Assembly (NCBI GenBank): GCA_051294375.1 | Contig: CM119265.1 | Location: 8,316,772-8,380,771, forward strand | DNA from: Paraspadella gotoi | Taxonomy: Eukaryota > Animalia > Chaetognatha | Direction of reading: 5' to 3' | DNA: 64,000 nt | Shown here: in pieces, positions 2,494-62,161 of the stretch | Position numbering within the stretch: the stretch's first letter is position 1 | How the letters are laid out: each line of letters opens with the position of its first letter | The notes under the pieces: generated by a model | Databases searched by the model: none | What the model saw: only the letters and a program-made list of their open reading frames with translations | Told to the model about the DNA's origin: nothing | Program-made: the position numbers and the translations under genes

Positions 2494-5400
2494 TTAGGCG
2501 TTTGCTGAGCAAGTTCCGTCCGTTTCGCTTGCTTTCAATTCAGCCAAGCGAGTCTCCCTTGCGCCAAGTATTTGATTTAAACTTTTTTGAACTTCATTCC
2601 CGTAAATCGAGCGTAAGTCATGAAACGCCCTACTCTCCTGAGAAGGTACCAGCAATTTCTGCGCCTTATGGAGAGCCTCTTCGTGTGCTGTAAGATTCAA
2701 AAGAAATGTTCTCAGCGCTTCCTCTGACGGGTCCTGCTTGAGAGACCCGAAGGCCCTTAGTAAGGCGCCGAGCGGTTCCTCGAAACTCCGATTCAAAGCG
2801 GCTTGGAACCCGTCATACTCTGTCTCGAAGTGTTCGAAGACGTCGTAAACGAAACGATCTTGAACCTGAAAGAGTTCCGTGAATCGAGAGAGTTCCTCTT
2901 CGGCGAGACGCAATCGCGTCTCGAGCGCGCCTCTTTCGACGTCGCGCGCGTTGACGAAAGCGCGCGCGATCGAGGAAACCTCCGACCAGCGGGATTTAAC
3001 GACGGCTTTTCGGGGGAGTTGAGAGAGAAAGACTTCAGCATCAAGGGAGCGAGGGATGGAGGGCGATGGCTGCGATTGTTCGGATAGGGGAACGAGAAAG
3101 GACAAAGATAGAAGCTCAGTTCCGAGATCTTTGAGAATTTTTTTCGTTGTCTCTGTATCATTCCTGAAAATTGAATTTGAAACTATGCTAATTTCGAAAT
3201 TTAATACAGTGAAAAAAATATTGGTCTTTTCACCTTAGCGACTCAAACTCATGATCAGAGGCAAGGACGGGAACGACGGTGGACGACTTTCGGTTAGAGA
3301 TGGAAGGAAAGACCGACAAACGAGTCGCCAAGGCGGTCACAGTAGAATAGCAAGCCGCTACTTGAGATTCTAATGCCGAAACTTTCTGCAAAATACACAA
3401 TTTATAAAAGTATTGTTATAAGTAGTTTACAACAATTATAATCTCTAAATAATTAAAGTAATTCGAATCAGACAAAAACAAAATCTATCCATAAATTATT
3501 AATTCACCTTTAGATTGTACATCGGCTCTTTCCCCACAAGCAAGTCCAACACCGAAAGGCCGTCTTGCGCGCAATATTCCTGTGGAACGATGATCTCTCG
3601 ACGGTCAAGCTCCAAGTCTCTTTCGAGATGACGGAACAGAGAGGATCGCGCTTTTTCAACTCCTTCCGTCAATCGAAAAAGTTGGGCGCGAGGAACCGAG
3701 ACGTGGGAAGAAGGAGCGTCGGTCGTCGCCAAAGTTTGACACTGTGACTTGAGTGCCTGAAACCAAACAACATTCAGCTACTATTATTTTGGTGCTAGTT
3801 TGGAGTATAGTTTATTACTCAAGGGAGTGGTCCTTTTATGCAATCTATGGTGGACTAAAATCCACCAACCGTTCATCAGCGGCCATTGGTGCCGGAGGCA
3901 AGTCATTCGCCTCCCAACCCAAAGGTCCGGGGTTCTAACCCGGTGGCCGCCTAGCAGTTAAGAGGGAAGGGGCGCTTAACCCGCCTGTAACACGGTGTTA
4001 CAGCCTGATCCGAAGCTCAGGGACTGCTTATATTGAACGGTTCTGTCACTAACATATAACAATATTAACAATAATTACTGTCTCTTCAAATTTAAACAAC
4101 TCACATGCTCTGGAAGATAAAAAACTAGACTGATAAGATCCTGCTACTATGTTAATAAAATGCAGGCCGTAACCCACCATAGTCTATGACATAGACTGCC
4201 GAAGTCAGGAGGCAAGATAGCTTATATAATATCATCAACGGAATAGACCTATCGACGGACTTGGTTGGCCTAATGATGTGATTGCTCGTCTTCTTCACGA
4301 ATCATCAGAAAGCCGACGAATCACAGACCTGACGTCAACCTTAGATTGACCAATGATGGACGGATGGATCGACAGTCGGGATTGCTAAGAGAACTGAGCA
4401 TTCTCCTCCATATCAAATCTCAAGAAAGAACTCTACAAATAATTATTTTTTTAATTATTGAACCGTTTAATATTGTCATCATCTTTGTCATCGTTACCTT
4501 TGTCAACACCTTAATCATTGTCCGTCGTTACCTTCACTTAATAATTAGTTATTATTTACCCTCTTTATTTGACTAAACGTCAACGATATACAGAAGGCGT
4601 CATATTATAAAATTTTGATGTTTTTTATGGCGACATCCACATACTATGTATAAATATGGGCTATGCGAAAATTGACAAATAAAAAAAATTTTTGTTATTT
4701 AAAAATGTTCACAGGTACAAGCGTGTTCATGATCTACTATTCGAATTTTGATTCTCCTTGATTTTAATATTTTTGCTAAGCTTTCAAATATTTATATATA
4801 TATATATATACAGTGGAGATCCTGATTATTATTATTAGTAAGAAAGTAAATAAAATCGCCGGCCGAATTCTTTAAAAATTCCAATGCCCGCTAAGAAATA
4901 TTTTGCTCCCTCTGTTCAAACGCCGGTCGCAAAACGTTACCTTATTTGGAAGTATTTTTAGAATTGTTTACTTTACAAATGTAAACCAAATTTTCTCTCT
5001 CTCGCCGTATAAAAATGAATGCCACTTTGTACAATTAGCCAATTCGATTCCATTCGCTTTTCTGATTTCAATAAATCGATTCATCTCATTTTGTTCGCCA
5101 TTTTTATCTCGACCACCTCCACTATACACATATATATATATGATTAATTCTTTCATTGGTTGTACCAATTTCATAATAACTCGCCACGTATCAAGAGAAT
5201 TCTTGCTTCTCCGCAATACACACATTCAAAGTATTTTCCGCTTCCCACAGAGTCGCCGATCTCTTGGTCATTCCGCGTTGAAGCAGCAGCAACTGGCGCT
5301 CCGTTTGAAACAGTTGAGCCTTGAGTAGGTTAACCCGTCTGTGAATTTTTTATTTTTCAGCGATGGATTTCGAAAGATATTCATTCTAAAAGAATTCAGA

Positions 5401-6664: not shown

Positions 6665-6783
6665 ATTTCAGTCAAGTTTTATTGTTCATCACTTAGAAAA
6701 GAGGGTTGGATGTAGAGATGAATATCACAGAGGTTACTGACTAGTTTTGCTATTCTTAATTCTAGTTTTTTTTTCGAAGTTTC

Positions 6784-7056: not shown

Positions 7057-7449
7057 CGTTCGAAAATAGAACTTGGGGGATGCGGTTGGCGCGTCTCTGG
7101 TTAAAGTTTTCTTTTTTTAAACGGCTTTGCCAAGTCCAAGCTTCTTTTTTTTTCAACTCTTGAAAAACGTCATGATAAAATTCAAATTAAACAAATTTCA
7201 ACAATTTTCTTATTTAACTCTTGCCCAAATTTTGCTAAGATCTAAAAAATTTTCATCCTGCGATGAAAAAAAAATCAACATTTTTCTTTTCTTTCACAAC
7301 GAGGCTCTCTTCTCTTCGTTTCAGCAGCAAACAACCCAAAACAAAAGTGACACGCAGAGAAAAAATAATGGGAAAAAGAGAGAAAAAAAGCCGAAGACGA
7401 CGACGATGATGATTGCTGGGATCGGAGAGGGTCGCCGGATACGGAATTA

Positions 7450-8395
<946 letters not shown>

Positions 8396-8591
8396 TTTGC
8401 TTCTTTCCTCCCGTTAGCTGCTAAACGACCAGAGAGCTTCAGAGAAAAATCTGCACAATAATAAAAATAAAAAGACAATACGAGAGTAGAATAATAAATA
8501 AGTAACGAAACATGACGAACAGAAGCGAATAGTGGTATCAAAATATGAATAGATGGAAAGACGATGGAAGACTCTTGGAATCGCGCGGACG

Positions 8592-9176
8592 TCAAACAAA
8601 CAAGTTGGCCATTCGCTTAGACATCAATGCGTTGTAGTCTTTCTCCCTCTTATAAACTCTTGCCAGTTCGGTCTTTAGCGCCTTGTTTTCCGGCTCGCAT
8701 TCCAGGCCTCGCGCTAAGTCCGACCTCGATCGCGCCCACTCTCCCAACTCGGCCCATGCGCGAGCGCGTCGATAGAGGGCCTTCACGTTGACGGGGTCCA
8801 TTTCCAACGCCTTGGAGCAACAGTCAACGATGCGTTTCTCCCGCTTCGAGTCGGCGACGTTCTTTTGGAGGCAGGCGGCGATGTTCAAGTAAAGCGCGAC
8901 CTTGAGAAACTTGATCCGCGCGGAGAGCGATTCGTCGTGGGAAGGGGCGTCATCGTCGCCGGATGGTGGGCGGTCGGCGAGATCAATGTCTCCCGCTGCG
9001 GAAACTGTGAACTTGAGACTTTGGTGAAAAGATTTATGGGCTGCCCGGAAACGGTCGCACTGAAATAGATCAGCGCCATCGTTCTTGAGTCGAGACGCCG
9101 TTTCAAGTTTTTGTTCGGCGCTCATTTCGTTAATGAGAAGATACTCGAGATCGCCTTCGTTTTGTTCGCCCGCCAT
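8592..9176 (-). CDS. Single-exon TPR protein resembling the FKBP4/5-type or TTC9 TPR module, with no PPIase domain
   Basis: LYLNIAACLQK...ALEMDPVNVKALYRRARA...EPENKALKTEL; C-terminus RMANLF. Confidence 0.8.
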   Translation of the reverse strand: MAGEQNEGDLEYLLINEMSAEQKLETASRLKNDGADLFQCDRFRAAHKSFHQSLKFTVSAAGDIDLADRPPSGDDDAPSHDESLSARIKFLKVALYLNIAACLQKNVADSKREKRIVDCCSKALEMDPVNVKALYRRARAWAELGEWARSRSDLARGLECEPENKALKTELARVYKREKDYNALMSKRMANLFV

Positions 9177-10008
9177 TTCAAGGGTTAAACAATTTTAAAA
9201 AGTTAATCTGAAAAAAGGAAAACAATTTTTAAAAGAGGGGCGACGATTGTTCGAAACTGCAACTGGAAGATGGCAACTTAAGCGATTTTGGCACGCGCTA
9301 TCTTTTTTTGAAAATAATTTATGCGAATACGAACAAACGGCATTTATGAATAAGGGAGGGTTGATATGGCAGCACCAAAAAAAAAAAAAAAAAAATGTAG
9401 GATAAAAAATGAGAAAATTTGAATCAAATAACTAAAAAAGCAACAAAGCTAAGAAAATAATAACAGCCAGAAATTATCCCAGGTCATTACTAGAATTATC
9501 AGGATAGAGTCGGGTCACAGCTTCACGATTAAATCTCGTTAATCACTCATAATAAGTGAAACTATCAAAGAACCTTGTCTTGTTGTGATTTGATTATATC
9601 AGTTATATCAGTTTGTTTCCCCGATTAGCCCATTCGAATTATTTTGTACGGATGCGTGCAGCAAAGGTGCGATGGAACAAAAAAAAAAAAAAAAAAAAAA
9701 GAAAACTGGGTACGCTGAGAATTTCAGGGAGTTTAAAAGGGTCAACGGAGATAGGCAATTGTTAACATAATTTGGTTTTTCCAAAAACCAAAAAATAAAA
9801 ACAAAAAATCGTCGCGACCAAACGTACTTCCACGAAATATTTGTACAAGGTACATTAGTGTTTTCTTTTTTACAATCTGCGTATGAAAAATATTCATGTT
9901 CAAAAAAATACTGTGAAAAAAATTCAATGTCTATAACAACTACGAAACAATATATGTATATTAACTTCCCCGAAAAGCCCTTATCTTTAACAACCTAAAC
10001 ATGGTCCG

Positions 10009-10921
10009 TCAGTTTTTCTTTTTGTCGCCGACGGCTTCATCTTCGGTGTCACTGGCGTCGGAGTAATTGGCAGGCGACTCTCCCGGCGCTAACAAGCGGC
10101 CAACGATGGAGTACTTTTCGTGAAACTGTTTCTCCCATTCGCGCAACGAGTCCCATTCCGAAGGCGTGAGGTCGCTAAAACGAATCCGACGAACATGAAC
10201 CAAGGTGAATTCAAAACTTAATCGTGACTTTCTCAACGAACCCGAGATCGTCGTAGTCGTCACGAATGACCGAGTCCTCGACAGAGAACTTGGCTAGTCC
10301 CCTAGAAGCGTCCCTGCCGGCAAAGACGCCGTAAGGCCCGCCAGGACCGTAAAAGCTACGTCCGGTGGTGACGTCGAAAACGTTGCGATTCACCGCCATC
10401 AAGATCCTACCCTGTGTGTCGCCGGCTGAGAAAAAAACAAAAGAAAATTAGAAAAGGAAGAAATCCCAATTCAAAACAGCGTATTCCGGCTGCAGATTCT
10501 TAATTGGTTCGCCTCGACACGGTATCTTACAAATCTAAGATTCTAACAAATCCTGTTGCGCGACCCAAGCATTTCGATCCGCCTCCTCACCTCCATTCCC
10601 GTCGTAAGGCTTCAACTCCTCGATTCTGTAGTCGCGCTTCTTCATTGGAGGCAGCGAGGGTTGGCGCGGCTCCGGCGGCGTCGACGACTCCATCGAAGTG
10701 CGGATGATTTTGTAGAGGAGGATGAGACAAAACACGAGGAGGAAGATGTTCAGGTACGAACCGAAGAGCTCGTCGAGGAAATACGTTTCGGGCTTCTTAG
10801 TGAGTTCCTAGTGAGAAAGGCGAAGTTGAATCATCAGAGCCTACAACCCCCATTTCCCCCCCCCCCCGACTGTGCGAACTCGACCCACTTCGGGTACTCG
10901 AACTTCCTTTTCCGGTTCCAT
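10009..10921 (-). CDS. PGRMC1: Membrane-associated progesterone receptor component (cytochrome b5-like MAPR)
   Basis: N-terminal TM helix, [58 protein letters not shown]; 4 exons. Confidence 0.92.
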
Positions 10922-11181: not shown

Positions 11182-12564
11182 TCACGAGTCCTTGAGGTTG
11201 ACGACTTTCCCGACGATTGAGGCGCCCATGATTTTTTCCATTTTTTCGGCGACGACTGGTATTTTTTCCGCTTGGATGATCATTACAACTCGCCATGGTT
11301 CGTATGATGCGTTATCATCGCTTTTGTCCGACAGATCCTGCCCGAGATAGGGAAGATCCAGACAGGATCGAAATATTTTAAAAAATGAACGGATATAAAT
11401 TGTTTGAAGCAAAAAAAAAAAATAAGTTCCAATTACCTCGGCATCGGGCATTTCATCGACCACGGCATACTTAAAGTTGAAACAGCTTTCCTCGTAAAAA
11501 AGTTCTTCCTAATTTGAAAAAGAAAAACTCAGATCGAAAGTCCAGTTGGACAAAAATTATCCTTTTGCCTACCTCGCCATTTGCAAATATCATGGGCTCG
11601 TTTTTAGAATCCTTGGGCACGAGCACTTTGCTTATAATGAGAAAATGGCTAAAATCGAAGCTCTGCCCCTTGGCGCAGGCAGAATGGAGTTCGTCCCTCA
11701 AAGAGTCGTGGAGCGGAATCGAAATATGAGGAGGAATGTTGACGAAACGCTCGTTGATTAGCCAACCTTGTTATTTTATATCTCGTGTTAATAGTAATTA
11801 CAATTGTCGGGTTAACGAAACAAAAACGAAACTTTCCAACTCACCGGTTCGCAAGGATGGGTCGTTTGGATCGCAGAAGTAAGCTCTCAGCGTTTCCGCT
11901 AAGCTTGGTTCGCTGATCCGCTGGCAATGGTTAATCAGATAGTCTTGTACCTGCTTAATGGCAGCGGCACCTTCCGAGATTGGTTTATCTTTACTGTCGT
12001 CTCGCCGCGAAAGGCGTTGAGTGACGTTGATGACAGTCGTTATTCCGAATACCTTGAAGGAAATGAACAACAGTCAAAATACAATTTTTCCTTGCCTCCA
12101 GACTAAGTTTTCTCCACTAGATTCTCACATCTTCCTCGCTGTCCTTTTCTTCTTCGTCTCCCTCTTCGTCCATTTCGTCGTCGTCGAAATGTTTGATGAC
12201 GCTCCCGACGTGATTTTGACCCAATATGATGTTGGCGATAGCGCCTAGATCTACGCTGGCTTTGAGGAAGAGCTGCTGCAGAAGGCGCTTGATGCCGTGA
12301 AAGTCAGCGTCCGTGGCCGTGCGGGCGTCAAAGTCGAGGGGTATTTCGAGGTCGATGATATTGTCCGAATCCATGTCGGCTTCATCGGCTACGTCGGCTT
12401 CGTCCTCGTCATCTATATCGTCAGCGTCTACGATGAAAAATTATCATTAAGTTACGAAGAGGGGAGGAGGGACGGGGGGTGGAGAACCTGACCTCACCTT
12501 CTTCGTCGTCGGGAGGAGGTGGCTTGTCTACCTCAAATTCGCGCCGCTTCTTTGGAGCCGCCAT
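11182..12564 (-). CDS. BCCIP: BCCIP/Bcp1 homologue (multi-exon)
   Basis: MAAPKKR, an acidic N-terminus, DFHGIKRLLQQLF, VFGITTVIN, INERFVNIPP, IFANGE. Confidence 0.9.
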
Positions 12565-13466: not shown

Positions 13467-16199
13467 TCAGGTTGTGTTGGGAAGGTTCATGCCTTGGAGG
13501 AGTCGGTCGCCCCACCAGGCCTCAAGATCGAGCGGCTCAAAGTTTTGCAAAAGAGGAGAATTTTGTGAATCCTAGAAAAGAACAAACAAGAAATTACAGC
13601 ATTAATGGGGTTAAATGGATGGGCCATTATCATAGATAAGGGTTTTTACCTTGTGATAGACCAACTTTTTCCTACTTCGGCTAGAGTCGTAAGACTCGAA
13701 TTCCTAAACACAATTAGTAATATCTTTGTTAAGTATACATACAGGGTTGGGATTCAAAACTTAGAATATGATTTACTATTAGATTTCAATATCAAATAAT
13801 TATGAAAATTGCAAAATTATTTGTTTCACTATTTTAAGTCTTAGATTTTATAATATTCATTAAAATTATATATTAAAAATTCTTTATTATATTTATTATT
13901 ATTTTTATTAATTTGGTTTTTGATAATCTAAATCTGAAAATATATTATTAATGGGAGAGGGTTGTTGGTATTGTCTTCTGGAGATAGAGGGAGCATCTAT
14001 ACAACATAAGGTTATATTACTTCCTGCCTTAGTTTATTATTTTATTTTATAATATATGAAAATAATCATTAATTTTTGCTTTTTCTGATGTAGGTTTTAT
14101 TTTTTTTTATCTTCGCCACAGAGAAGAGAACATTGGTTGAATATGCACTGCGCCGGTTTTTAGCTTAAAACCACTACTAAAATATGTTAACGTTCACTAT
14201 CTGTGTTATATTCTTAAAAAGGCCATTATGAACCGGAATAACTATTTTAAGTCGGAAAACCTTCCATTAAGCCAAGTCGATTAGAGCCATATATAAGCGT
14301 GCTGCATGCTGCAGCCGTTTGTAGTAGACTACAAACAAACAATATGCTTGCTGGTATCTCATTTCCGTGCTAAAAGGAAAATTCTAAAGAGCAAATAAAG
14401 AACTGAATTTAGAAATATTCCCTGGTTCTTCTTATCTTTACTATCCTATAGCCAATAAACCTGCAGCACTTTGAGAAGACCTATTTTATCCTGATTATTA
14501 AAATCAATTTTATTTTAAGATACTGTAAAAAATTTTTTTTTCTTAAGTTTATACTGTAGTGGCTTCATAATATCCACATCTAATTCAGCAGATGTGATTC
14601 TTTTGGGTGCTGTGACCGGAGCGTTTTTTGCAGAAGTTCTTATCTCAATGCATGCGATGCGTCACAAAATAGCAAAACGTTAGCTCCATTAAAATATATC
14701 CACTTACCTGTTGTACTTTCTGCCATTGGTCGGATATAAATCGTACCATTTCTTCGTGCTGAGGGGCAAGGGGTTCGGAATTCTGTCGGGGCAAGCCGGA
14801 GGATTTCCTGAAAAAAACAAAAGCTTAAGTGCAAAGGCATATAGTGCATTTTCTCTGTAAGCCTCAATTTACCCATTCGATTTCACCACATCACAGTAAT
14901 TTTCGAGCAAACTATCGAACCGATTACCTGTGGTGCTGTTGAAAAACCGGTCGCGGAGCACTCATGGCAGCGGCGTCGACGTCAGTAGACGAGGACGGCG
15001 AGTGAGCCGCCGCCGCAGCTCCAGGCGGACTTCCCGCGGGCGAATGTTTGTCTTTTCTCGTACGACTTGTTTCGAGTTAAATTCAAATGAGTTTTTTTAC
15101 GCAAGGTTCAAAAAATTTTAAAATTAGTATGAAATTGGTACAATCAATATAACAAGAACAGTAATTCAAATGTGTTGCGCCGCAGTGACTGCTTTATCAC
15201 GAGTATTTCTCATGATATTACATGACATGACGCTACTTGACATGATATGCGCTAGCAGACATTTAGATCTGTCTTAACAAATGAGGAATCATCAACTATA
15301 AGCAAATTATATGCATTTTTAACATAAGTGGGATAGACCGACGGACAGACATACCGACGGACCGAAAAGTGACTTAAATAGAGTTGCTCCGCGAGTACTC
15401 GCTTCGCAACTAAAAATTATCCATTCATTTAATAAATAAGCTGTCTTGCCCGTGACTTTGGGCAGGCTTTGGTGATTTAAGGCCTCCATCACACTTAGAA
15501 GCTTTCAATCAAGACTCCCAGAGTACCTGGCTTCTCTATCAATGAAGTGGTATAATATTTAAAAGAATGTTTCAATTGTATGAAAAGACCACTCCCTTAC
15601 TTAATCATTATTTACTATCACTTTTTTAACTAGTGAAGCACAGTATAACATTGAAGCATTTAAATATTTATAAATGCATAGGCAATGAAAACATTTTTTT
15701 TGTAAAAATTTTCTTTTTTAAGAATGGATTCAGATATCGCATAAAAAGTTGTCTACACAAAGTATAATGCGTTAATAATGGAAAAACTCTTTAAAATCAT
15801 CATCAGTGTACCATAATTTTTATAGTTTTTGCTAATTTTAATCATTAAAACATAAAAATTTGGGAATCTTGTAGTAATATTTTTTAATTTATTTTTTCAA
15901 GCTCTACCTTCATCCGTTAAAAATTCGAAATTTAATAAAAAATCTAATGATTTATAGTAATACGATAAACTTTAAATGCTTCTATGTTATTAACTATGTA
16001 TAAAATCTAAAACTTTTATAAATTTTGTTATCCCACAGGGATGCACTAACGTTATTTATACTACAGTTTTATAGTTTTTACTTTGTTCCGCCTTATTATT
16101 TACGATGCACCTGTTATCTTGCAGTACTTCCAATTGCTGATTGTAAGGTCGTCGGGTCTTCGCCGCTATCTTGCTTGGGCCGCGGGCAACTGTATACAT
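13467..16199 (-). CDS. MCRIP2: MCRIP/FAM195 family protein (multi-exon; not evident in the ORF track)
   Basis: Exon 16111-16199 MYTVARGPSKIAAKTRR; APRPVF near 14950; HEEMVRFISDQWQKV near 14710-14760; last exon PLLQNFEPLDLEAWWGDRLL...* ending at 13467. Internal exon boundaries are uncertain. Confidence 0.85.
13949..14036 (-). repeat. ~90-bp dispersed repeat, copy 2 (inverted relative to 1768-1858)
   Basis: Aligned by eye with 1768-1858. Confidence 0.75.
15151..15416 (+). mobile_element. HINE/DINE-1-like non-autonomous Helentron-type element, copy 1
   Basis: Starts AACAAG, has an internal GACG/GACA/GACC microsatellite and a 3' hairpin agttgc-(gcgagtactcgc)-gcaact followed by aaaaa; homologous to 34969-35290 and 36866-37163. 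Confidence 0.65.
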
Positions 16200-26108: not shown

Positions 26109-26551
26109 TTTCGTCGCGCCAGATCTTTTGTTTTATTAAATTTTAGAGGGCTAAGTTTTTATACCACCGCGTTTTATTAATACAAAGCGTTAACAACGGC
26201 ATCGCGAAAATCCGTTTCTGGGGATGCCCATCAAAACAAATAAACAAAAAAGCTGTAAACAAATAAAATAACATGCGGTAGAAGATAGTAACAAATAACG
26301 CGAGCGAGTTACAACCGTAATGTGAGACTAACTTTCCTTACAGTAAAATACGTGAAATTACGTTAAATATTGCAATTCATTTTGGGTCTTAAACCATTCT
26401 TCTTACTGATTAATAAAAATGTACGAGATAAGCAGATCCAACTAGTCACTTAGTGACGTTTCATAGAAAAACTAAAGAGTAAAGAAAGATAAAATGTAAC
26501 ACTTATCACAGAGGTCGCCAATGGCGGAATGAATGCGTAAATAATAAAAAT

Positions 26552-34800: not shown

Positions 34801-37602
34801 GCCTTTTTGCACAGAGGCTTCGACGATTACTTCCGGGGTCGCAACGGGCGATATCGTAACGCGCATACCCTCGTTCTGCCCATCGGGAGCAATTTGGCAC
34901 GCTCCGAGGCATTTTATGACGCCGTCGATAGAACCCATGGCCTTTTCAGGAAAATTGGACATTAAGAGAACAAGAACGGTAATTCAAATGTGTTGCACCG
35001 AATTGGCTTCCTTATCACATGTATTTCTCGTGACATAACATGACATGGCATGAATACATGATTACAATTATTTTATTCGCCCGAGTATTTATAACATACA
35101 CTGCATCAAAATACCGTCTTTTATTCTTTTATAGTTTTATGATTTCCTAGAGGCGGTTTTTTTTGTCTAACAAATGAGCAACCAACTATAAGCAAATTAT
35201 ATGCATTTTTAACGTAAGTGGAAAAGATCGACGGACAGACATACCGACCGACCGACTAACAAGTGACTTTTAGTTGCTCCACGAGTAAAAGTGAAAAAAA
35301 AAAAAAAAAATAGCTGCGTTACCTGATTAAATTGAACATTTCGAACAGGTTCGTGGTCGACCACGACTTTGAGAGTTGTAGGATTCAGAATAAACCCGTG
35401 ACCTGCAAAGGAAAGTAAGAAGATCAGTTATTGTCGATTTGTTTGCACTTCGAAGGAAACCCCCCCCCCAAAAAAAAAAATTAAAAGAATCTCCTTACCA
35501 TTTTCTTCATCAGTCACATCTGGCGTGACCGAATATCGCCCAGGCGCCAACTTGGTGCAAAATTCAGAGACGGTTCGATCGAAAGTCACGTCCAAAGAAG
35601 TGACGAAATTGTCCTCCCGCGTAAAGGTCACGCGTCGTGGTTGGGTAGCGAATGCCCTCGTCAAGGCGACGGGGATTTCGCGGAGAGAAATTTGACCGCA
35701 GACGTCGAATTCGTTCGGCAGGATTTCCGGAAGGAGTGGAGTGTTGGGCGTGATCTTTGTCTTCGTGGGAGAAAAGTAGTATCCTAAGTAAGAAATTTTA
35801 TTTTTATTTTTAAGCTTTTTAGTCTATTTTTATATTTCTATATTAAAAAAAAAAAAACACCACATACCTGAACCTTCGGGGGCCCTGACTGCAATAGTAT
35901 AGGTTCCTGTCTTAATGTTTTCCAGTTTATAAACTCCCTCGTCGTTGGTGGAAGTGACGATGGAACCGTCGAGGGAGATGGAAGCGCCGGCGACCGGCGT
36001 CCCGGACGGCGTCACGCGGACGATACCTGGGAGAGATTTTAAGAGGATGATACGAAAGCTTTAGAACGACAAACGAAATGGAATTCCCAAATCCCCAGCC
36101 TCAAACCTTGAACGGTAAAGCCTTCCACGCGAAACACCTCTTCAATGTCCCGGTGGGCGTGGCGGATCTCTAACGAGACGGAGGGCGGCAGAACATCGAA
36201 CCGAATGCTCTGCCCCACGTAGTGCGGGACGACAGCGTAACGACCGTTGGGGAGGCGCGAGAAGACAAACGTGCCATCGACACCGCTGGAGACGAAGCAG
36301 AGCGGCTTCAGGTCGGAAGCTGCGAGGTCGTGAGAAGCGGTTGGGGGAATGGTGTTAGTCATGCAGTCTTCGGGAGGGAAGACGCCGTGAGCAGAGTGGA
36401 GGACGAACTTTACGTCCTTAATAGGTTCGCCCTCGCTGACGACGCGGCCCTTGACGTCGTAGCCGGCAACAACGAGCTTTTCATCGATGGAGCGCAGGCC
36501 GGTGGTGATGGTGACGGGAAAAGAGGGGCGCGAGAAGACGAGACCTTCTCGCGACGCTGAGATCACGTAGTCGCCAGGAAGGAGAGAAGCGAAGGAGTAG
36601 CGACCTGTTGCGTCAGTGACGGCGGAAGCCACCAGCTCGTCACCGTGGCGAATAGAGACGACGACACCTTCTGGCCCTTCCTCGTCGCCGGCGCTGATGA
36701 CACCGCCATCTACGGCGATTCCCTCGAACCGAAAGTTAATGTCCTCGCCCAGGCTGCAAGGATCAGTCGATCCGTCGACAGTCACCTCGAGCTCCCGCGG
36801 GGTGAAGCTCCATCCACTCTGCGATTCTACCTAAAAATGAAAAAGAATAAGATAGGTTCATCTAATGTGTTGAGACGTAGTGACTTTATTTTCACGTTTA
36901 TTTCCCTATGATCACATAACATGATATAAAATGATTACAATAACTTTCTTAGCCCGCGTATTTATGACACGCACTGCATCGGAATTCCGTCTTTTATTCC
37001 TAATAGTTTTAGGATTTCCTGAAGGCTAACAGTCACTTAGACTTAAGGTTTTTTCTTAACAAATGATCAACCAACTTGAAGCGAATTATAAGCATTTTTA
37101 ACGACAGACCGACCGACCGACAAGGGACTTATAGATTTGCTTAGCGAGCGGCGCAACTAAAAATGATTATCTAAATACATCAAAGATCCTTGCCCCCTGC
37201 CTCTCGAGATTGCTCTCTCACCCTGCAGCAATTACTTTAGCAGCTGCAGGATATAGAGGATGTTATTATGTTATTATGGTACATTCCAATGATTATTTAA
37301 CACTATCTAAATAACACCTTGATAACGTAGCTGCCCTTGTCGTAGACTGGAATGAGATAGTAGCCGTTGTTGGGCGCGCAGTCGGTGGAATACTTGAGCG
37401 CGCCCTGTTGCGTGTAGAGTTTGACCTCGACCAAAGAAAAGTTGATGATGGCGTCGCTCTTGACGAAACCCCCACACCCGAAAAAGTCTTGAGCATGGGC
37501 GAAAGAGTTTAATAAAACGGAAGCCAGTAATAATCCGACAAGCCGTAACGGAGAGGGAGACAGCGTAAGAAGCTTAGTTCTGGATTGGAGAGCCGTCGAC
37601 AT
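31834..37602 (-). CDS. NOMO1: Nodal modulator (BOS complex subunit)
   Basis: Signal peptide, GCGGFVKS...LKYSTDCAPNNGYYLIPVYDKG, repeated beta-sandwich domains, GVLLSLSGG, YFLRPMKKEY, C-terminal TM and basic tail. Confidence 0.93.
34969..35290 (+). mobile_element. HINE-like element, copy 2 (NOMO intron)
   Basis: aacaagaacggtaattcaaatgtgttgc...gacggacagacataccgacc...agttgctcc, shared with copy 1. Confidence 0.65.
36866..37163 (+). mobile_element. HINE-like element, copy 3 (NOMO intron)
   Basis: Shares actgcatc...ccgtcttttattc, taacaaatga, gacagaccgacc and the gcaactaaaaa end. Confidence 0.6.
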
Positions 37603-38364
37603 GGCGACGGTGAATTGGATCGGAGTCTGGACTATTTAGTCATTAATGCTGGTTTTACGATAATATAAAATAAACAAAAATTTACATTTGCGTCTACGAC
37701 AAATGTGAAACAGGAAAAATAACAAAAATAGGATGTGAGAATAGAATTGCCATGAACGAGGATAATCAAAGTTTAAAACTCAGACCACCAACATTAGTTT
37801 TTTGTGCAGATAAAACTCGGAACTTTAAGATGAGTATTCAAAAGGAGAATTAAATAATATAGGAACAACTAAAAACACCGAAGCTATGAAAAAAAATTAC
37901 AGAGCATGAAAAAAAAGGGCAAACCAGCTTCTAATCTACTACAAATGTGGTTAAAATGTACGGGGTAATCTGTAAGGTAATAAGCCTTAATTCATGTGTC
38001 ATGTGGCTAATAACGAGCGAATCGAAAGTATTGCCTGAGAACATAAGTCTAACTTCGTGATAATGATTCGCGGAGATCGGAATTGTGATAAGGAACAACT
38101 CTTTAACTACAACCGAATTTACAAATTTGAAAACGCTCTTTTCAAAAAAGCTTGGATCCGGAGAAGCCGAAAAATAAATCCCGAGCACGAAATTTTAATT
38201 TCACGGAATGAGTAAACTTTTGTCAAAAGTAGCACGACGCGAGGCTGGGGGGGGGGGGAGGATCGAGTCGAGTAGGATCGCCGCAAGAAAAAGAAAAGAA
38301 CCGCGCACCCACCGTCCGCTCCTACTACCTCCCCCCCGCCCCCTTTCCTCCGTATTTTCGCCGT

Positions 38365-39891
38365 TTAGGATTCGTCTTTGGCAGAGAGGAGCGTCTTGAC
38401 TCGGTCGAGGTCGTCGTTCCCGTCGGCGGGAGACTTTCGCGAAGAGTCCACCTCCGACGCTGGAGAAGATGACGTCGTCGTTTCCCCCACCACCCCCGTC
38501 ACGTCGAGAGGTTGAGCGGAGATGATCAGGGGTGGAGCTTTTTCTCGTGGTTTCATTGGGACTGGGGTCGTGGCGGGACTGGAGGACGTTTGGGTAGGGA
38601 TTCCCTTTACTTCGTTTTTCCTGTTACACCGAGAGAAAAAAAACGGTGGTTCTTGCGACCATCTACAAACCTAAAGGAAAAGGATGCCGCGAACCTGGAT
38701 GACTTCTGAACTAATTCGACGAGGTGAAAAAGGCTGTCGACCCTTCCTTTCAGCGCCTGAACTTGGCCATTGATTCCGCCGATTTCGTCGTCTCCATAAA
38801 AGGCGCTGAATCCAATATAGATACATGATAAATACAATAAAAAAAATCGAGAAGTAGGTTGGGAAGTAACATAAATTACCGGTACAGACTGACGGATTGG
38901 GCCCTCAAATCGCTCAACGACGCGTTGAATGCTCGCAAGACATTGGCACCGGCCGTGCGCTCCACCATCTGGCGCATGATCTCGTTGCGTTTTTGCGCGT
39001 CGTTGGTCTTGATCTCGAGTTCCTTGGCTTTGGCCTGAATAGAGGCCAAGTTGCCCCCCATAGTTGCCACCTGATGCTTCAACTCGTCCATTCGTCGGGG
39101 GAGATCGACGAGTTCGGAGGTGGTGGCCAGTGTGGCCTTCATCGACTCAAGACCGTCCTTAACTCCTCGAAGTTCTTGGGTCGATTTGGTCGCAGCGTCG
39201 CCGAGGCGTTCAACTGCGCCGGCGCCGCTAGCCACCTTGACGTCGAGAGTGTCGAGTCGCTGGCGCAGTTTGACAAGGTCGCCTGCGACCCCGCCGTCTG
39301 ACTCTGTGACGCGATGCACGGTGTCACGGAGCAGCGCCATCTCACGTTTCATCTCCATTTGCATCCAGGCCACGGCTGACAATTATAGTCAAATGTTTTC
39401 AAATCAAAAATCAACTCGGAGAGGGGGGGGGAGACCATCCAAATTAGCGAACAAACCTGCAACGCCGACGATGCTGACGACGCAGAGGATGAATGAACAG
39501 ATTCCGAGGCAAGTAAAGCAAGTGCGACCACAAGACTCGCAACCATCGCAGCACGAGCCGCGCTGGCGCCGTCTGAACCGCCGATCCGTCACCTTATGAG
39601 GAATAACTTTCGGTTTAAATCTGTGAAGGACAATGGACATGAACTTATCTTAAAAAGCAAATAAGAAACCTGGGCAAATAGGTCGGCTTCACCGCTGAGT
39701 TCCTGTTGAATGTCGTTCTCGGAATTGGAGCCGCTCTCCTCAAGAAGCTGATGCGTCCTTGACGACTTCCTGACGACACCCCCGCCGCTCCCGCCACTTC
39801 CGAATTTGGCGATCTTGTCCGCCGAGACGAGAGCATCCAGCTCTTTCCGCTTCTTCATCTTTTTGTTCGTTGGCTTAAAGTCGAGACTCAT
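38365..39891 (-). CDS. EFCAB14: EFCAB14-like type II membrane coiled-coil protein
   Basis: MKKRKELDAL...HQLL, Cys-rich pre-TM segment, TM ending AWMQMEMKRE, then a coiled coil. Confidence 0.7.
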
Positions 39892-40406
39892 TATGGTTTT
39901 TAGTTTCTTTACGAAAGACAGTTGTGAGGTGGGGCTGATTGATACTACGCTGATCCACGATGGATTTCAATCAATTTGTAACTCGTCCCTAGCTTTCCAT
40001 TGAATGTTCACCAATGTGTTTTGGATAAGAGTTTAAAACAACATCGCGACGGGGACACAACTAAAAAATTTAACATGTTTTTACATTGCGAAATATGTAT
40101 ACTATACTACGTCAGCATAATAAAAAAAACCCAAAACTCTTAAAATGTTGAGTATGGATTGCCCGATTCACGTTGAGCATGAGAAACGGAATGGAATGAA
40201 TGAAACTCTGGAGATCCTCCACGAGTGGAGCGATTTAATTAATTTAAAGATTGTGAAAATAGGAAAAAATAAAAAGTAAGATCGCCTGGATATGAAGCAA
40301 ACGATCTCGATCTGATTCTATAATGGTAGGACTAGCGGTACGATTGTCAGCCCACTTTCAAAAAAAGACATGAAAGTAAAAGGAGGCGTTTGTGCAAAGG
40401 AGCGAT

Positions 40407-42754
40407 TTAAGGGGCGACTCGTCGTTGATGCTGCTGCGACTCACAGTCGCAATCTCCCAATCGAGATTTGAAATCCTCCATTTTGAGAAAGGCCGAGATA
40501 GACTTGGGCATATTCAAAAAATCGACGATAGACGATCGACGGCGCCTCCTGTCGTGAAAAAATTTAAGATGCCATTCACATTACAGGCAATGGTTCATAA
40601 TTTTTATCGAGTTCAAAGATCTACCAGAATGACTTTCTCGCCAAATGCTGCAGAGAAAGCATCTTTACGGTGGGTTGACGAAAAAGCTTGACGGTTCCGT
40701 CGGCTAGACCGACGGCGATCGATGAAAATCCGCCCCCGCCGAGAAAAGCGCAGCCGACCGGGCGATCGACGAAGGCGGTGGCGATGGGGTCGTCGTCGTC
40801 GTCGAGAATGCTCCAGACGCGGACGCTGCCGTCGCCACAGACGGCTGTGATGTGGTCGGCGCCGGGAGCAAAAGCGACGTCACGTACGGCGAAGTCTTCC
40901 AGTGGTCCGCCGATCAGAGACATCTCGAATCGGGAGGAGCAAGGGTAGACGGAGCGGAAAATCCTCAGCATCGCCGCCGTGGAAGACATCGGCGACGGGG
41001 CTGCCGCATGGAAGTCGGCATCCAAAGGATAGTGCGACGACGTCGCGTCCCAAAGGATGACTAGGCAGTCGTTACCGCCGCTCAGCATAAATGTTCCGTC
41101 TTAAGTAGAGAAAGAATGCATCTCTGCATTTAATGCACTCAGGGATTAGAAACGGAGTTGTATTCTCACCATTGGAGTAGGCAATCGCGGTGACGGCATT
41201 CTGGTGGCCCTTGAACTGTCGCACGACGGGGCACTTGCGGTTGTGAACGCTGATATCAGCAACGTCCCAGGCGTAGACACAGTTGCCAAGGCCGGCCGCG
41301 AACTGGCTTGCATCGGGGGCCCAAGCAATCACGGGCGCCATTCGCTGCAAACACTGGTGCCGACAAAGGTCTCTTACTCATAGGAAAGATTTCAAAAATA
41401 GATAAATGAAACCAAACCTCCACCTGATCTGGTTGGATCGTTTTGAGAAGATTGCCGTCGTCCTGGCAATCCCATATTTTAATGGATTCGTCCTTCGAGG
41501 AGGAAAGAAGCAAAAGACTCCCGTTCGGGGCAAACTGCAAGTTACGAACGTCATCTGTAGTACAAAATGGGGAAGCGCGTTTTAATTAAGTAAGGTGACG
41601 AGGCTTCTAACGGTATGGTTTTGATTGTATAAGAATGTATATGGATAGCAATAATTTTAATTGAAGACTGTTAAAAAACTGAGAATATAAACCATATTGT
41701 AATTTTCATTAATATTTTTTTAGTATTTGCTTGCCTTTGTGATCCACGAGCGATATGAGCCGGGTGCGCGTGTCGACCTGCCAAAGATCGATCTCGCCGC
41801 GCTCATAGCCGGTGGCAACGATGTGACCTATTGTGTGATAAGAAATTTAAAATTACCATGAACCCAAAAAATTTTCAACCACTGAATTTTTTAAATTTTA
41901 TGGGCCATTGGATTTCTTAAAAAAAAATTTCAATGTTGCATCAATACATATTTGTATTTTACTTTGTCTAGAGACTATCAAAGGAAAAAGGATTCGTGCA
42001 TGGACTCTCCCAACAGCCCAAGTTATCTTTCTTGGTATTACAAAAAATAATACTTTCTACAAACTATAAAATTCAGAAAATATATTAATAACAAACTAGC
42101 AAAAGTAGGATGCAATTTGTACAACTCAGGTTGAAAGCATTACTGTAGTCCTAAAATTACCAGATTCGGATGGAAAATTGAGAACTTTATGAAATCCAAT
42201 ACTGATTGGTCTAGCGCACTTTCGGATACTTTCGCCCCGTAGCTTTCCAAAGGCGACCGATAAAACCAGCTTCTTGCATAAAATCGTAGTCGTCTTTATG
42301 AAAAAAATATCCAAATAAAAACATTGTTTCAAAACCGATGACGGTTTTAAATGAGAGAAACCTGAGGACTCAGTTCTTGGATTCCATTTTCGTCAAACTC
42401 TCCATCGCTGCCAAGCCTAGAATGGGCGAGGACTGGCTGATGACGAGCCTTACAGTCGAGGATCTTCAGCTCTCTTCCCAGCAATATCCAAGCCAAATAT
42501 CGTGCGTCGTCGGAAACCACGATTGAGCTTCGAGTCAATTCTGGGAAGGATGGGGATCCGATCCTGGGTAGAAACAAAAAGGGCTCTCTAACAAATCAAA
42601 ATAGTCATAAGAAATGTAAAGAAAAACTAATGTAGTGAAAGATTTACCAGGGGTCGCCGGTGGGCGGCAGCGGAATGGGATTCGTCAAATCTTTGACATG
42701 AAGAAGCGGAGGCACGTCGCTCGAATTGTGGGTTTTGAAAGACCTCTTTGCCAT
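40407..42754 (-). CDS. WSB1: WD repeat and SOCS box protein
   Basis: WD40 repeats (LSSSKDESIKIWDCQDDGNL, FKGHQNAV, VRDVAF) and SOCS box LSLQHLAR...MPKSISAFL. Confidence 0.85.
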
Positions 42755-43120: not shown

Positions 43121-45332
<2,212 letters not shown>

Positions 45333-46044
45333 CTGAGGAATTGGATACAGTAATCAATGTCAGCGGAAAGGAAAATTCGGAAAATTACGTACAAACTTAT
45401 ATGTACTATCATTAATCAGGTTGGGCGAAAGCGTATAGTATTAAAAATAAGGATTAAGAAGCTATTTTTTGTGGAACATTTTAACATAGCCTTTGATAAT
45501 ATTCGCAGCACTGAGCAGGGTCATCTAACAGAACAGAAAATCATTTAAACTGCCCAGTGCCTATCGCAGACCATTATGGAACATTTTTTAACGACGGCAT
45601 ATTCGGTGTGAATATTTAACACTATTTTTGCATTGATTATAATCATAATTATTTTCTTTTACAATCGTCTCTCTTACAGTTTTTCTTAGCATTAAAATTA
45701 TAAATATCCGCTTAATTGGATCCTCCTACAAAACATAAAATAAGAAAGAATAAACAGTCGAATTAATCAAGGTAATACAAACATTTTCTCAGAAAATGTA
45801 TATTTGACAAAGGCACAAAGTTAATCAGGGATAAAATTTATGAGAACCAGGCTTCCCGATACAACCACAAATATTAAAGAAACGAATGGAACGAATAACA
45901 TCTAATTGTTAATTTTAACTTCCTTCGATACAACCTGAGAAAGTTAATTTTCACAACAGTATCTGTGCCGTCATCGCGTGATGACTGATGCATCGTTTAT
46001 ACTTCAAAGCGACTTATATACATCGATCTAAAAAAGAAAATTTC

Positions 46045-48402
46045 TCATCGCGTGTACGTCCACGGATTGAGAAGAAACTCGGCGGCGATAGGAAAATGGT
46101 CGGAACCGTCCGTGGAGTTGGGAATCAAGCCGATCTCGCTCATCTCACTCATGACGGGGATGCGATGTCGGGCGATGATGCGCATGGGACCCTCCAACAC
46201 GTCCTGAGGAAGGATACGTCCTGTTTGCAAGTTGTGATTGACGCGAAATCCGTCGACCGTATAGAACATGTAGTCGGTGCAGGTAGAGAAGCCCTTGATC
46301 TGCGTGGAGATTTCCCTGTTGTCGACGGCTTTGATCTCTATTTCCCCCTCGTCGTTGGGGTCGCGCTCGCGGGCAGCGATTTCGTGCTTGTAGACGGTTA
46401 CGAATTTGAAGTTGTGACTGAGCTCTCCGAGCGGCTCCGTTGGCGGCGTCTCGGTATACTGACAATTCTCGTCGACGCCTACTTCGGCCGGGAAAAGCGG
46501 CTTCTTCAAAAAGACCTTTTTCTCCTTCTGAAACACGTTGGTCTGACCGCTGATCTCGTCGGCTTGTAGGCCGGCGTACTTAAGCCTCTTGGCCTGAACG
46601 AAGCGGTAAAGGTGAGAGTAGGGAAGTGCGTTGAGGTCGCCGCAAAAGATGGTCGGGTAGTAAGAAACGTCGTTGGTCGAAGAAGGTCGACGGCAGAAAC
46701 GATCCATTTCCGCGAAGAGAAGACCCAGCTGGGCCAACTTTGTGTCGCCTCTTTGCGCTGAAAAAAGCAACTGGGTGGTGATAATACAAAGATGAATGTC
46801 GGGCTCCTTCCACTTTTCCGGGGCCACATTCTTGGGGCGCTGGACGATGGGCTTGACCTTAACCATGAGCCCGACGTTGTCTCTGTCGAGAATGGGGCAA
46901 TCCTTCTTCATGGAGAAAGGGTGGGCGTCGATAAAACGAAATTTATCCAAACGCACGAAGATGGCGCAACCCTCGGCCACGCCAGACTGGCGGCAGCGGA
47001 ACATTCCCAGGTAACCCCGCATCTCCAGCAAGGGAACGAAGAAAGATGCGTAAACGTCACTGGCCACTTCCTGCAGGCAGATGATTTCTGGATCTCCGAT
47101 GTAGTCGATTTCATCCTCGATGCGTTTGGATCGATATTCCCACTGCAAGTGCTCCGGCTTGTGTTGAGTGAAGTTATAAGATTGCTCCGTCATCATGGCC
47201 TGCGCCAACACGTTGTAATTGACGATCTTGAAGCGAAATGGCTCCGCGCCTTTCACGGGCAACACCTTCTTCATCTCCTTTTCCTTTTGCTGCTCCTTGA
47301 AAGTGGAGACCCAATATCTGAAATTTCTGCTGGTCGTTTTCGTTTTCTCTTCGACGACGGCGGCCGAGGCGCGGATAGACGAGACCAGCTTTGCCAGCTG
47401 AGCGTCCTCCCTCTCTGGCTCCGCCGCCGTTCGGGACCGGACAGAGGCAAGGAACTCCGGGGCGGGGACGAGGTCCGGAGGGATTTGAAGGCTTCGGCAG
47501 AACGAGTAGAAATCGGAGAACTCGACGTCATCCGCACCGGATCTCTCGGGGACGGCGGCCGCGTCTCCGACCCGTCGGTACTCTTTACCGGAACTTCCAT
47601 CTTTGGTCGGACCCGAAACGCCGACCAAGACACCCTTGGGCTCCACGTAAGCCCGAACGCCTTTCTGACACAAGTTCTTGTGCTTGGGGGAAACAATGTG
47701 ATAATAAATGCCTGGTCCCTGACAAGTAAAATTACAAACATCACAATGATATAAAAAGTGCTTGGTACTCTTTTTATATTCCTCATCAGAGGAAAACGGA
47801 GGGTTGACAACGTCATCGGGTTTACGTTTGACACCAGGATGCAACAGCGTCGGAGGCAAAGTTCGATCACTCTTGGCGTTTTCGACGTAACCAGAACCGT
47901 TGGAAACGTTGTTGTTGGAGTACGAGACCGGAGGAGTGTTTGGATTGCTGAGTGTGATCAGCTGTCTCTGGTTCGGACGAGGATTCGGCGGAACGATGGG
48001 ACCGGGCGGAACTGGACCCGCCTGACCCACAGCATATCCGGAACCGTAGTGAAGAGGATGCGATGTTAACGGCGCTTGACCGTACAGGACGCCCTGCTGG
48101 GGATGCTGATATTGCGGCGCCATCTGAGTCGGAGACCCGGGATTCCCGCCGCCGTCGCCGCCGCCGAGGATGTCGGCGAGAAGATTTCGTATCGATGCAT
48201 CCGGATCGGGGTTGGGAGCAGGGACGGGATTGGCGTTGGATATTACTTGGGGAGGTAGGGTCGTGGGATAAGCAGTCCCGCCGTTTGTCACGACTGGGTT
48301 ATAAGTTTTATACTGGAAGTTACCCATGTTGCTCGGAAAGGTGGGCGGATTGGAATTGTCAAGCGGGCGCGTGAAAGACGCCCAACTCGGTTGCCTCGAC
48401 AT
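46045..48402 (-). CDS. ANGEL: Angel-family EEP (CCR4-like) protein with N-terminal low-complexity region and zinc finger; single exon, 785 aa
   Basis: NYNVLAQ, ICLQEV, LDRDNVG, RGDTKLAQL, CGDLN, DYMFY, GSDHF; CDVC-x11-H-x5-H upstream. Confidence 0.88.
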   Translation of the reverse strand: MSRQPSWASFTRPLDNSNPPTFPSNMGNFQYKTYNPVVTNGGTAYPTTLPPQVISNANPVPAPNPDPDASIRNLLADILGGGDGGGNPGSPTQMAPQYQHPQQGVLYGQAPLTSHPLHYGSGYAVGQAGPVPPGPIVPPNPRPNQRQLITLSNPNTPPVSYSNNNVSNGSGYVENAKSDRTLPPTLLHPGVKRKPDDVVNPPFSSDEEYKKSTKHFLYHCDVCNFTCQGPGIYYHIVSPKHKNLCQKGVRAYVEPKGVLVGVSGPTKDGSSGKEYRRVGDAAAVPERSGADDVEFSDFYSFCRSLQIPPDLVPAPEFLASVRSRTAAEPEREDAQLAKLVSSIRASAAVVEEKTKTTSRNFRYWVSTFKEQQKEKEMKKVLPVKGAEPFRFKIVNYNVLAQAMMTEQSYNFTQHKPEHLQWEYRSKRIEDEIDYIGDPEIICLQEVASDVYASFFVPLLEMRGYLGMFRCRQSGVAEGCAIFVRLDKFRFIDAHPFSMKKDCPILDRDNVGLMVKVKPIVQRPKNVAPEKWKEPDIHLCIITTQLLFSAQRGDTKLAQLGLLFAEMDRFCRRPSSTNDVSYYPTIFCGDLNALPYSHLYRFVQAKRLKYAGLQADEISGQTNVFQKEKKVFLKKPLFPAEVGVDENCQYTETPPTEPLGELSHNFKFVTVYKHEIAARERDPNDEGEIEIKAVDNREISTQIKGFSTCTDYMFYTVDGFRVNHNLQTGRILPQDVLEGPMRIIARHRIPVMSEMSEIGLIPNSTDGSDHFPIAAEFLLNPWTYTR

Positions 48403-61220: not shown

Positions 61221-61328
<108 letters not shown>

Positions 61329-62043: not shown

Positions 62044-62161
<118 letters not shown>

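What the first reader, a model, noticed from the sequence alone, without database searches (positions are those of the whole stretch)
2494..48402. Sixteen consecutive co-oriented, tightly packed housekeeping genes: candidate large eukaryotic operon(s)
Seen: every gene I can reconstruct from ANGEL (48402) to the coiled-coil gene (2494) is on the minus strand. Approximate stop-to-next-ATG gaps are 713, 367, 516, 763, 340, 444, 390, 565, 903, 261, 833, 197, 400, 120 and 485 bp. Sixteen in a row has probability 2^-15 if orientation is random. Established: SL trans-spliced operons of nematodes, tunicates and chaetognaths are co-oriented, closely spaced and rich in housekeeping genes. Inference: one or several polycistronic units, possibly driven from the divergent promoter at 48403-48844; a single 16-gene unit would be unusually long for an animal.
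Basis: partly seen in the sequence, partly recalled or inferred. Interest (0 to 1): 0.85.

Follow-up and report, generated by a model that had tools for sequence, protein, structure and literature searches.

The report
Long leader-spliced operon array, unidentified animal
Sixteen unrelated genes of an unidentified animal sit head-to-tail on one strand, and assembled RNA runs across many of the gaps and often starts exactly at splice-acceptor sites, so they are likely transcribed as one or a few long RNAs that are cut into single mRNAs by adding a leader, possibly one of the longest such operons in an animal.

Summary
Observation confirmed: 16 minus-strand genes from ANGEL (48402) to a coiled-coil gene (2494), gaps 119-902 bp, no missed plus-strand gene. 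Orientation alone is weak: about 0.3 such runs are expected in 20,000 randomly oriented genes. The RNA contigs of run X1 (kind guessed, but spliced) add more. They cross 8 of 15 gaps (6 shown, 2 inferred). One GT-AG splice joins the PGRMC 3'UTR to NACA across the whole TTC9 gene. 4 of 6 contig starts fall on the first base after an AG with a 5-9 nt unaligned stub (1 shown, 3 by depth arithmetic). The TTC9 contig ends at the NACA acceptor with an 8-nt stub, as in Ciona. Best reading (0.7): spliced-leader-resolved operon(s) with short or no intercistronic DNA. RNA links 10 genes (DNAJC11 to the last gene); a single 16-gene unit is unproven (about 0.25). The leader sequence was never seen, contigs are not transcripts, and the phylum is unknown (chaetognath is a lead). 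Known kind; 16 genes would exceed the maxima I read (11 in tunicates, 9 in a chaetognath). The scan noted similar, shorter clusters in other genomes.

The parts
46045..48402 (-). ANGEL (EEP-family phosphatase), single exon; candidate first gene
   Evidence: PF03372; best named hits 'protein angel homolog'
43121..45332 (-). HDAC3, 8 exons, 496 aa
   Evidence: PF00850; named HDAC3 hit; model checked
40407..42754 (-). WD40 protein, WSB-like (name and SOCS box recalled; Pfam found no SOCS box in the last exon)
   Evidence: WD40 hits; no hit for last exon
38365..39891 (-). transmembrane/coiled-coil protein (EFCAB14-like, recalled)
   Evidence: spliced contig, record 2; weak coiled-coil Pfam hits
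31834..37602 (-). NOMO
   Evidence: NOMO Pfam domains; 12 displayed GT-AG joints
26552..31494 (-). ZW10
   Evidence: PF06248, PF22766
22622..26108 (-). DNAJC11, 11 exons, 567 aa
   Evidence: PF22774, PF00226; model checked
16764..22230 (-). calcium channel alpha-2/delta subunit (CACNA2D-like; name inferred from domains)
   Evidence: VWA_N, dCache_1
13467..16199 (-). MCRIP/FAM195
   Evidence: PF14799; model checked
11182..12564 (-). BCCIP
   Evidence: PF13862; model checked
10009..10921 (-). PGRMC-like cytochrome b5 protein
   Evidence: PF00173
8592..9176 (-). TTC9-like TPR protein, single exon
   Evidence: TPR hits; Atlas TTC9 clusters at 0.97
7447..8395 (-). NACA
   Evidence: PF01849, PF19026
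6784..7056 (-). SAYSD1 copy a
   Evidence: PF10260
6183..6664 (-). SAYSD1 copy b
   Evidence: PF10260
2494..5698 (-). uncharacterised conserved animal coiled-coil gene; last gene of the run
   Evidence: 35 homologues, named ones 'uncharacterized' in coral, molluscs, brachiopod
48441..48844 (.). head of the run: ANGEL contig starts at 48441 with no stub; divergent ODAD3/CCDC151-like gene (ATG 48845, +); candidate shared promoter
   Evidence: record 3; PDB hit ODAD3 E=0.002
9207..9209 (-). acceptor where the TTC9 contig starts, 9-nt unaligned stub (candidate trans-splice site)
   Evidence: displayed: record 2; best-scoring of 27 AG sites in the gap
8450..8452 (-). NACA acceptor: TTC9 contig ends here with an 8-nt stub; also receives the splice from 9995
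   Evidence: record 2 and joint table; best of 9 AG sites
8451..9994 (-). 1544-nt GT-AG intron from a weak donor 14 nt behind the PGRMC stop to the NACA acceptor, skipping TTC9
   Evidence: joint 8450-9995, 30 nt on the short side; donor score 0.5 against 1.5-8.1 for 27 true donors
26252..26254 (-). acceptor where the DNAJC11 contig starts, about 9-nt stub
   Evidence: depth arithmetic
37648..37650 (-). AG where the NOMO contig starts, about 5-nt stub; upstream contig ends 18 nt before
   Evidence: depth arithmetic; weak acceptor score, rank 9 of 33
40060..40062 (-). AG where the EFCAB14-like contig starts, about 6-nt stub
   Evidence: depth arithmetic; weak acceptor score, rank 9 of 21

Best explanation
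The run is likely one or a few polycistronic transcription units that are resolved into single mRNAs by spliced-leader (SL) trans-splicing at acceptors just before each gene, with short or no intercistronic DNA. Shown: same strand, short gaps, spliced RNA contigs that cross gaps, one splice across three genes, one contig from acceptor to acceptor with unaligned ends. Inferred: RNA polymerase II starts near 48441 (and perhaps again inside the run, for example before DNAJC11), reads through the upstream 3' ends, cis-introns are removed, a short leader from elsewhere is joined at each acceptor, and the upstream mRNA is polyadenylated at or just before that acceptor. Now and then an acceptor is missed or taken by a cryptic cis donor, which leaves the joined forms that let the assembler fuse neighbours.
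For: Contigs of X1 have introns removed but keep gaps: unbroken pieces 45181-48441 (ANGEL-HDAC3), 21818-22737, 16111-17154, 12498-13570 and 6554-7584 (five more gaps); BCCIP-PGRMC is inferred from seven joints in one contig of depth 660.2, and SAYSD1b-last gene from 1477 nt of record 1 lying left of the laid stretch (about 900 nt more than exon plus gap). Joint 8450-9995 needs a precursor spanning PGRMC, TTC9 and the NACA 5'UTR. 4 of 6 contig starts lie on the first base after an AG with stubs of 9, 9, 6 and 5 nt; chance 4e-5 at the AG frequency, 2.5e-3 if one base either way is allowed. TTC9 contig ends at AG+A plus 8 unaligned letters, the pattern described for Ciona operons (PMC1488885, passages). 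Contig 3' ends lie 0, 18 and 80 nt from the next start or acceptor. Best acceptor score in the last 135 nt of the gaps exceeds shuffles (1.56 against 0.15 +/- 0.62, p=0.009). Close unnamed relatives of HDAC3 and TTC9 sit on single-gene-sized contigs of 0.6-2.5 kb, as resolved mRNAs would.
Against: The stub letters were never displayed, so no leader sequence is shown, and no loose end was listed. All RNA evidence comes from assembler contigs of one run whose RNA nature is a guess; a contig across two genes shows no single transcript. Three of the four starts rest on depth arithmetic that assumes no other contig in the bin; two of them are poor acceptors by my matrix (-2.5, -1.5). ANGEL starts one base off with no stub, and the ZW10 start computes to about 31477, not an AG. 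Acceptor scores near the ATG were not higher than just behind the upstream stop (12 gaps, p=0.34). Five gaps (HDAC3-WSB to ZW10-DNAJC11) are not crossed by a displayed piece. A 9-mer found twice in the head region recurs once at 26300, 48 nt before the DNAJC11 start, a weak hint of an internal promoter.
Confidence: 0.7

Rival explanations
1. Each gene has its own promoter in the gap. Leaky termination and overlapping UTRs in a compact genome let the assembler join neighbours. The starts at AG come from SL addition to monocistronic outrons or from tiny 5'UTR exons.
For: Orientation run is not rare genome-wide; gaps of 340-900 bp could hold promoters; contig depths differ tenfold between genes (65-660); read-through chimeras between neighbours occur in animals without operons (own knowledge).
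Against: TTC9 ends at the very base where NACA begins, and the NOMO start is 18 nt behind the upstream contig end, which leaves no promoter room outside upstream transcribed DNA. The splice skips a whole gene. Cis exons here end in G in 24 of 27 cases, while the four stubs seem not to, which suits one shared leader better than four micro-exons.
Confidence: 0.2
2. The genes are made as stable, spliced polycistronic mRNAs without trans-splicing and are translated by re-initiation or leaky scanning, as in green algae.
For: Spliced contigs of 3.2-7.5 kb hold 2-4 complete or nearly complete ORFs, with no loose ends listed.
Against: Several contigs begin at acceptors with stubs; TTC9 is a single-gene contig; relatives' contigs are single-gene sized; gaps of hundreds of bases with many AUGs argue against scanning (inference). 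Short leader and poly(A) tips are what an assembler clips, which would leave exactly these fused paths (inference).
Confidence: 0.07
3. The gap-crossing is an artefact of DNA or pre-mRNA background in X1, and the starts at AG are chance or adapter remnants.
For: The tool only guesses that X1 is RNA and warns that DNA can be in it; stub letters unseen.
Against: DNA background cannot make the GT-AG joint 8450-9995, and adapter remnants would not choose acceptors (p<=2.5e-3).
Confidence: 0.03

Closest known systems
Chaetognath SL-resolved operons (Spadella cephaloptera, PMC2481426, sections 12-13 and part of supplement 2 read; Paraspadella gotoi, PMC12460157, passages read)
   Same: Co-oriented housekeeping genes; poly(A) site 3 nt from the next acceptor; coding gap RPS14 to PCNA of about 300 bp; the tabulated 36-nt leaders come in several forms that share only their last few bases and end in A, which would give short non-G stubs in an assembly; gene bodies unmethylated (window CpG o/e 0.9-1.6).
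   Different: Longest P. gotoi operon has 9 genes (ribosomal, ubiquitin, proteasome genes) under a <250 bp rule; this run has 16 other genes. That the window is from a chaetognath is not shown; the operon table (xlsx) and the SL gene alignments could not be read.
Ciona intestinalis operons without intercistronic DNA and C. elegans SL1-type operons (PMC1488885, passages; PMC7986045, passages)
   Same: Upstream mRNA ends at the AG of the downstream acceptor followed by poly(A); mostly no AATAAA near the boundary; unresolved dicistronic RNAs can be found.
   Different: Ciona operons are mostly two genes, at most 6-7; here only one boundary (TTC9-NACA) shows zero spacing, others 18-100 nt.
Oikopleura dioica operons (PMC4122922, passages)
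   Same: Compact genome, tight co-oriented clusters, up to 11 genes reported for tunicates.
   Different: Oikopleura introns peak at 47 bp with many GA-AG ends; the 27 RNA-checked introns here are GT-AG, 59-487 nt, and the proteins are conservative.
C. elegans SL2 operons
   Same: Polycistronic precursor, trans-splicing coupled to 3' end formation (PMC7986045, passages).
   Different: About 100-bp spacers and a dedicated SL2 there; the divergent ODAD3 gene of motile cilia makes a nematode unlikely (inference from own knowledge).

Membership tests
SL-resolved eukaryotic operon | Two or more unrelated genes on one strand, closely spaced | tested here: met
   16 genes, gaps 119-902 bp
SL-resolved eukaryotic operon | RNA that spans neighbouring genes | tested here: met
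   8 of 15 gaps crossed by contigs (6 displayed, 2 inferred) and one splice over three genes; contigs of one run, not single molecules
SL-resolved eukaryotic operon | Shared non-genomic leader joined at an unpaired acceptor of downstream genes | tested here: inconclusive
   4 of 6 starts at AG with 5-9 nt stubs; letters not displayed
SL-resolved eukaryotic operon | One promoter at the head, none inside | not testable with these tools
   no CAGE or chromatin data; contigs cannot show starts
SL-resolved eukaryotic operon | SL RNA gene with donor and Sm site elsewhere in the genome | not testable with these tools
   no genome held; Rfam finds 0 families in the window
Ciona/SL1-type operon without intercistronic DNA | Upstream poly(A) site at the downstream acceptor | tested here: inconclusive
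   TTC9 contig ends at 8450 with 8 unaligned letters; the three other displayed 3' ends have no stub and stop 18, 80 and 99 nt before the next start or predicted acceptor
Chaetognath operon | Genome of a chaetognath, chaetognath SL on the mRNAs | tested here: inconclusive
   no named close relative; ANGEL tree unresolved; non-G stub fits Table 3 of PMC2481426 only if the laying tool extends to the last matching base
Nematode SL2 operon | Dedicated SL2 leader and U-rich element in about 100-bp spacers | not tested
   leader unseen; organism probably not a nematode (ODAD3)

The most novel reading that the evidence does not exclude
All 16 genes (46 kb) form one transcription unit driven from the ANGEL/ODAD3 promoter and resolved by trans-splicing of a leader that does not end in G. 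That would be longer than any animal operon in the papers I read (11 and 9 genes), and it may lie in a phylum where operons have not been described.
Probability: 0.22. Interest if true: 0.75.

Novelty: new member of a known kind. Interest (0 to 1): 0.5.

Why it matters
Animal operons are known from nematodes, tunicates, flatworms and chaetognaths, and are mostly two or three genes long. A unit of 10 to 16 genes would show how far polymerase II can run through 3' ends in an animal, and boundaries with 0, 18 and 80 nt spacing in one unit would allow a direct test of whether trans-splicing itself makes the upstream 3' end, a question left open for Ciona (PMC1488885, passages). If the animal is not a chaetognath, it adds a lineage to the list of independent origins of trans-splicing. 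It also warns that transcriptome assemblies of this species fuse genes.

Tried and rejected
No whole genome is held, so genome-wide run lengths and an SL RNA gene could not be sought. No holder on record as RNA was listed; X1 is a guess. The WSB-like gene and its two gaps had depth 0 in X1 at 98% likeness: a hole proves nothing. Metagenome scan with the TTC9 alignment: 229 pattern matches, 0 relatives. Scan with a NACA exon (11 of 64 parts scanned): 41 loci, none a close relative (at most about 69% over the long matches) and 0 of 41 with another gene of the run beside NACA. The HDAC3 search used too strict a cut-off and gave 3 rows; I had hoped to see HDAC3 on the same contig as the ANGEL relative P0010 and did not. 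ANGEL tree (24 rows; 23 of the 52 hits, most fish paralogues left out; quick method): window groups with unnamed P0010 at SH-aLRT 93, no starred group, long branch; no phylum. Direct repeats in 2400-16300 are A/T runs; no shared intercistronic element. AATAAA-type hexamers occur in 10 of 15 gaps without a fixed distance. Promoter motif scans gave only the 9-mer noted above. My automatic exon models had errors; seven genes and the last WSB exon were rebuilt by hand and checked, the others were not, and the DNAJC11 stub changed from 8 to 9 nt. Literature: 'gastrotrich' with 'trans-splicing' gave 2 unrelated papers; 'longest operon' with 'trans-splicing' gave only PMC12460157; searches gave no listing that describes this gene order or an animal operon over 11 genes (listings only; subscription papers are not held). 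PMC11067885 (passages) gave no maximum size; PMC2566580 (passages) confirmed 36-nt leaders.
Full report
Observation. The window is animal DNA with GC-rich exons, AT-rich short introns and no CpG depletion (o/e 0.9-1.6 in 2-kb bins). No whole genome is held. Reading the minus strand gives 16 genes in a row: ANGEL, HDAC3, a WSB-like WD40 gene, an EFCAB14-like gene (name recalled), NOMO, ZW10, DNAJC11, an alpha-2/delta subunit, MCRIP/FAM195, BCCIP, PGRMC, TTC9-like, NACA, two SAYSD1 copies and an uncharacterised coiled-coil gene. Pfam supports 14 of 16; the last gene has 35 homologues, the named ones uncharacterised proteins of corals, molluscs and a brachiopod. A codon-score screen of 141 leftover stop-free stretches found no plus-strand gene inside the run. 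The run is bounded on the right by a divergent ODAD3-like gene (PDB hit, E=0.002) 442 bp away, and on the left by a plus-strand open stretch at 2-700 without a family.

Chance. In 20,000 randomly oriented genes 0.3 runs of 16 are expected, 0.6 if the tandem pair counts once. Orientation and spacing alone would therefore not carry the claim.

RNA evidence. One run, X1, holds 0.71 of the sampled words. Its kind is a guess, but its contigs skip GT-AG introns, so they derive from processed RNA. I laid it on 6300-26299 (with X2, X3, X5) and 29700-49699. The tables are cut (119 joints and over 1700 pieces hidden), so some ends were computed from bin depths. Three things emerge.

First, spliced contigs keep the gaps. 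Displayed unbroken pieces cross ANGEL-HDAC3 (45181-48441), DNAJC11-CACNA2D, CACNA2D-MCRIP, MCRIP-BCCIP (one 7468-nt record) and NACA-SAYSD1a-SAYSD1b (one 3223-nt record). BCCIP-PGRMC is inferred from seven joints sharing depth 660.2, and the last gap from 1477 nt of record 1 that lie left of the laid stretch. That is 8 of 15 gaps. Five gaps between HDAC3 and DNAJC11 are not crossed by any displayed piece.

Second, a joint from 9995 to 8450 removes 1544 nt with GT-AG ends, from a weak donor 14 nt behind the PGRMC stop to the NACA acceptor, skipping TTC9; 30 nt lie on the short side and the record length adds up exactly. Overlapping UTRs cannot make such a joint; it needs a precursor over three genes. 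With it, RNA links 10 genes from DNAJC11 to the last gene, about 24 kb, through contig overlaps that I infer in part.

Third, contig starts. The 775-nt TTC9 record aligns from 9207, the first base after the best acceptor of its gap, to 8450, the first base after the NACA acceptor, with 9 and 8 letters unaligned (displayed; ranks). Depth arithmetic puts the DNAJC11, NOMO and EFCAB14-like starts at 26252, 37648 and 40060, each the first base after an AG, with stubs of 9, 5 and 6 nt (neighbouring bins reproduce exon lengths to the base). ANGEL starts at 48441, on the G of an AG, with no stub, and ZW10 computes to about 31477, which is no acceptor. So 4 of 6; chance 4e-5 to 2.5e-3. Two of the four are poor acceptors by a matrix trained on 27 RNA-checked introns. 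The displayed 3' ends of the EFCAB14-like, NOMO and HDAC3 contigs stop 18, 80 and 99 nt before the next start or predicted acceptor. Sequence-only tests are mixed: acceptors before the ATGs beat shuffles (p=0.009) but not the stretch behind the upstream stops (p=0.34).

Mechanism. The simplest account is SL trans-splicing of a polycistronic precursor. An assembler clips short leader and poly(A) tips where a low-level precursor path exists, which fuses neighbours; where no such path survives, the contig starts at the acceptor with what is left of the leader (inference). The TTC9 3' end matches the Ciona pattern of acceptor AG followed directly by poly(A) (PMC1488885, passages). The stubs appear not to end in G, because the alignments exclude the G of the acceptor, whereas 24 of 27 cis exons here end in G and most leaders I recall end in G. 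The chaetognath leaders in Table 3 of PMC2481426 (section read) end in A and come in forms that share only their last bases, which would give such stubs. This rests on how the laying tool extends matches and on that table being complete at the 3' end; it is a lead only.

Organism. No named proteome is close: the best TTC9 and HDAC3 relatives are unnamed (53% and 96%), the best named ANGEL hits are molluscs and echinoderms at 30-37%, and the tree is unresolved. I put chaetognath at about 0.45; other small-genome phyla remain open. Two metagenome scans gave no conserved neighbours and no leader.

Comparison. Published maxima that I read are 11 genes for tunicates (PMC4122922, passages), 6-7 for Ciona (PMC7986045, passages) and 9 for P. 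gotoi, where about half the genes are trans-spliced and 18% lie in operons (PMC12460157, passages; its operon table was unreadable, and could bear on this). The finding works like these operons; membership lacks the leader sequence and the promoter test.

Verdict. Real cluster, probably one or a few SL-resolved operons (0.7). A unit of at least 10 genes about 0.45, all 16 in one unit about 0.25. New member of a known kind; interest 0.5, 0.75 if the single long unit holds.

Noticed in passing
window 23550-23750 and 15150-15600: Intronic repeats draw X1 contigs at summed depths of up to about 50,000 and 20,000 at 85% likeness: abundant transcribed repeat families; Rfam finds nothing.
   Followed up: partly
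window 6183-7056: Two tandem SAYSD1 copies, one intronless and one with two introns, 119 bp apart.
   Followed up: partly
window 26300-26308 and 48611-48631: The same GC-rich 9-mer occurs twice in the head region and once 48 nt upstream of the DNAJC11 contig start; possible internal promoter, weak statistics.
   Followed up: partly
window 58198-60401 (-), 60700-62730: Long coiled-coil gene with serine/arginine repeats at both ends, preceded by a TATA-like box at 62730 and a long upstream region, unlike the packed run.
   Followed up: no
window 54389-55414 (-): Calmodulin-like EF-hand gene convergent with the ODAD3-like gene.
   Followed up: no
window 46045-48402: ANGEL is intronless with a 380-aa proline-rich N-terminus holding a zinc-finger-like Cys/His stretch; long branch in the tree.
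   Followed up: no
L016:1-12: This NACA contig starts with what resembles the end of the rotifer spliced leader (recalled); unrelated to the window.
   Followed up: no
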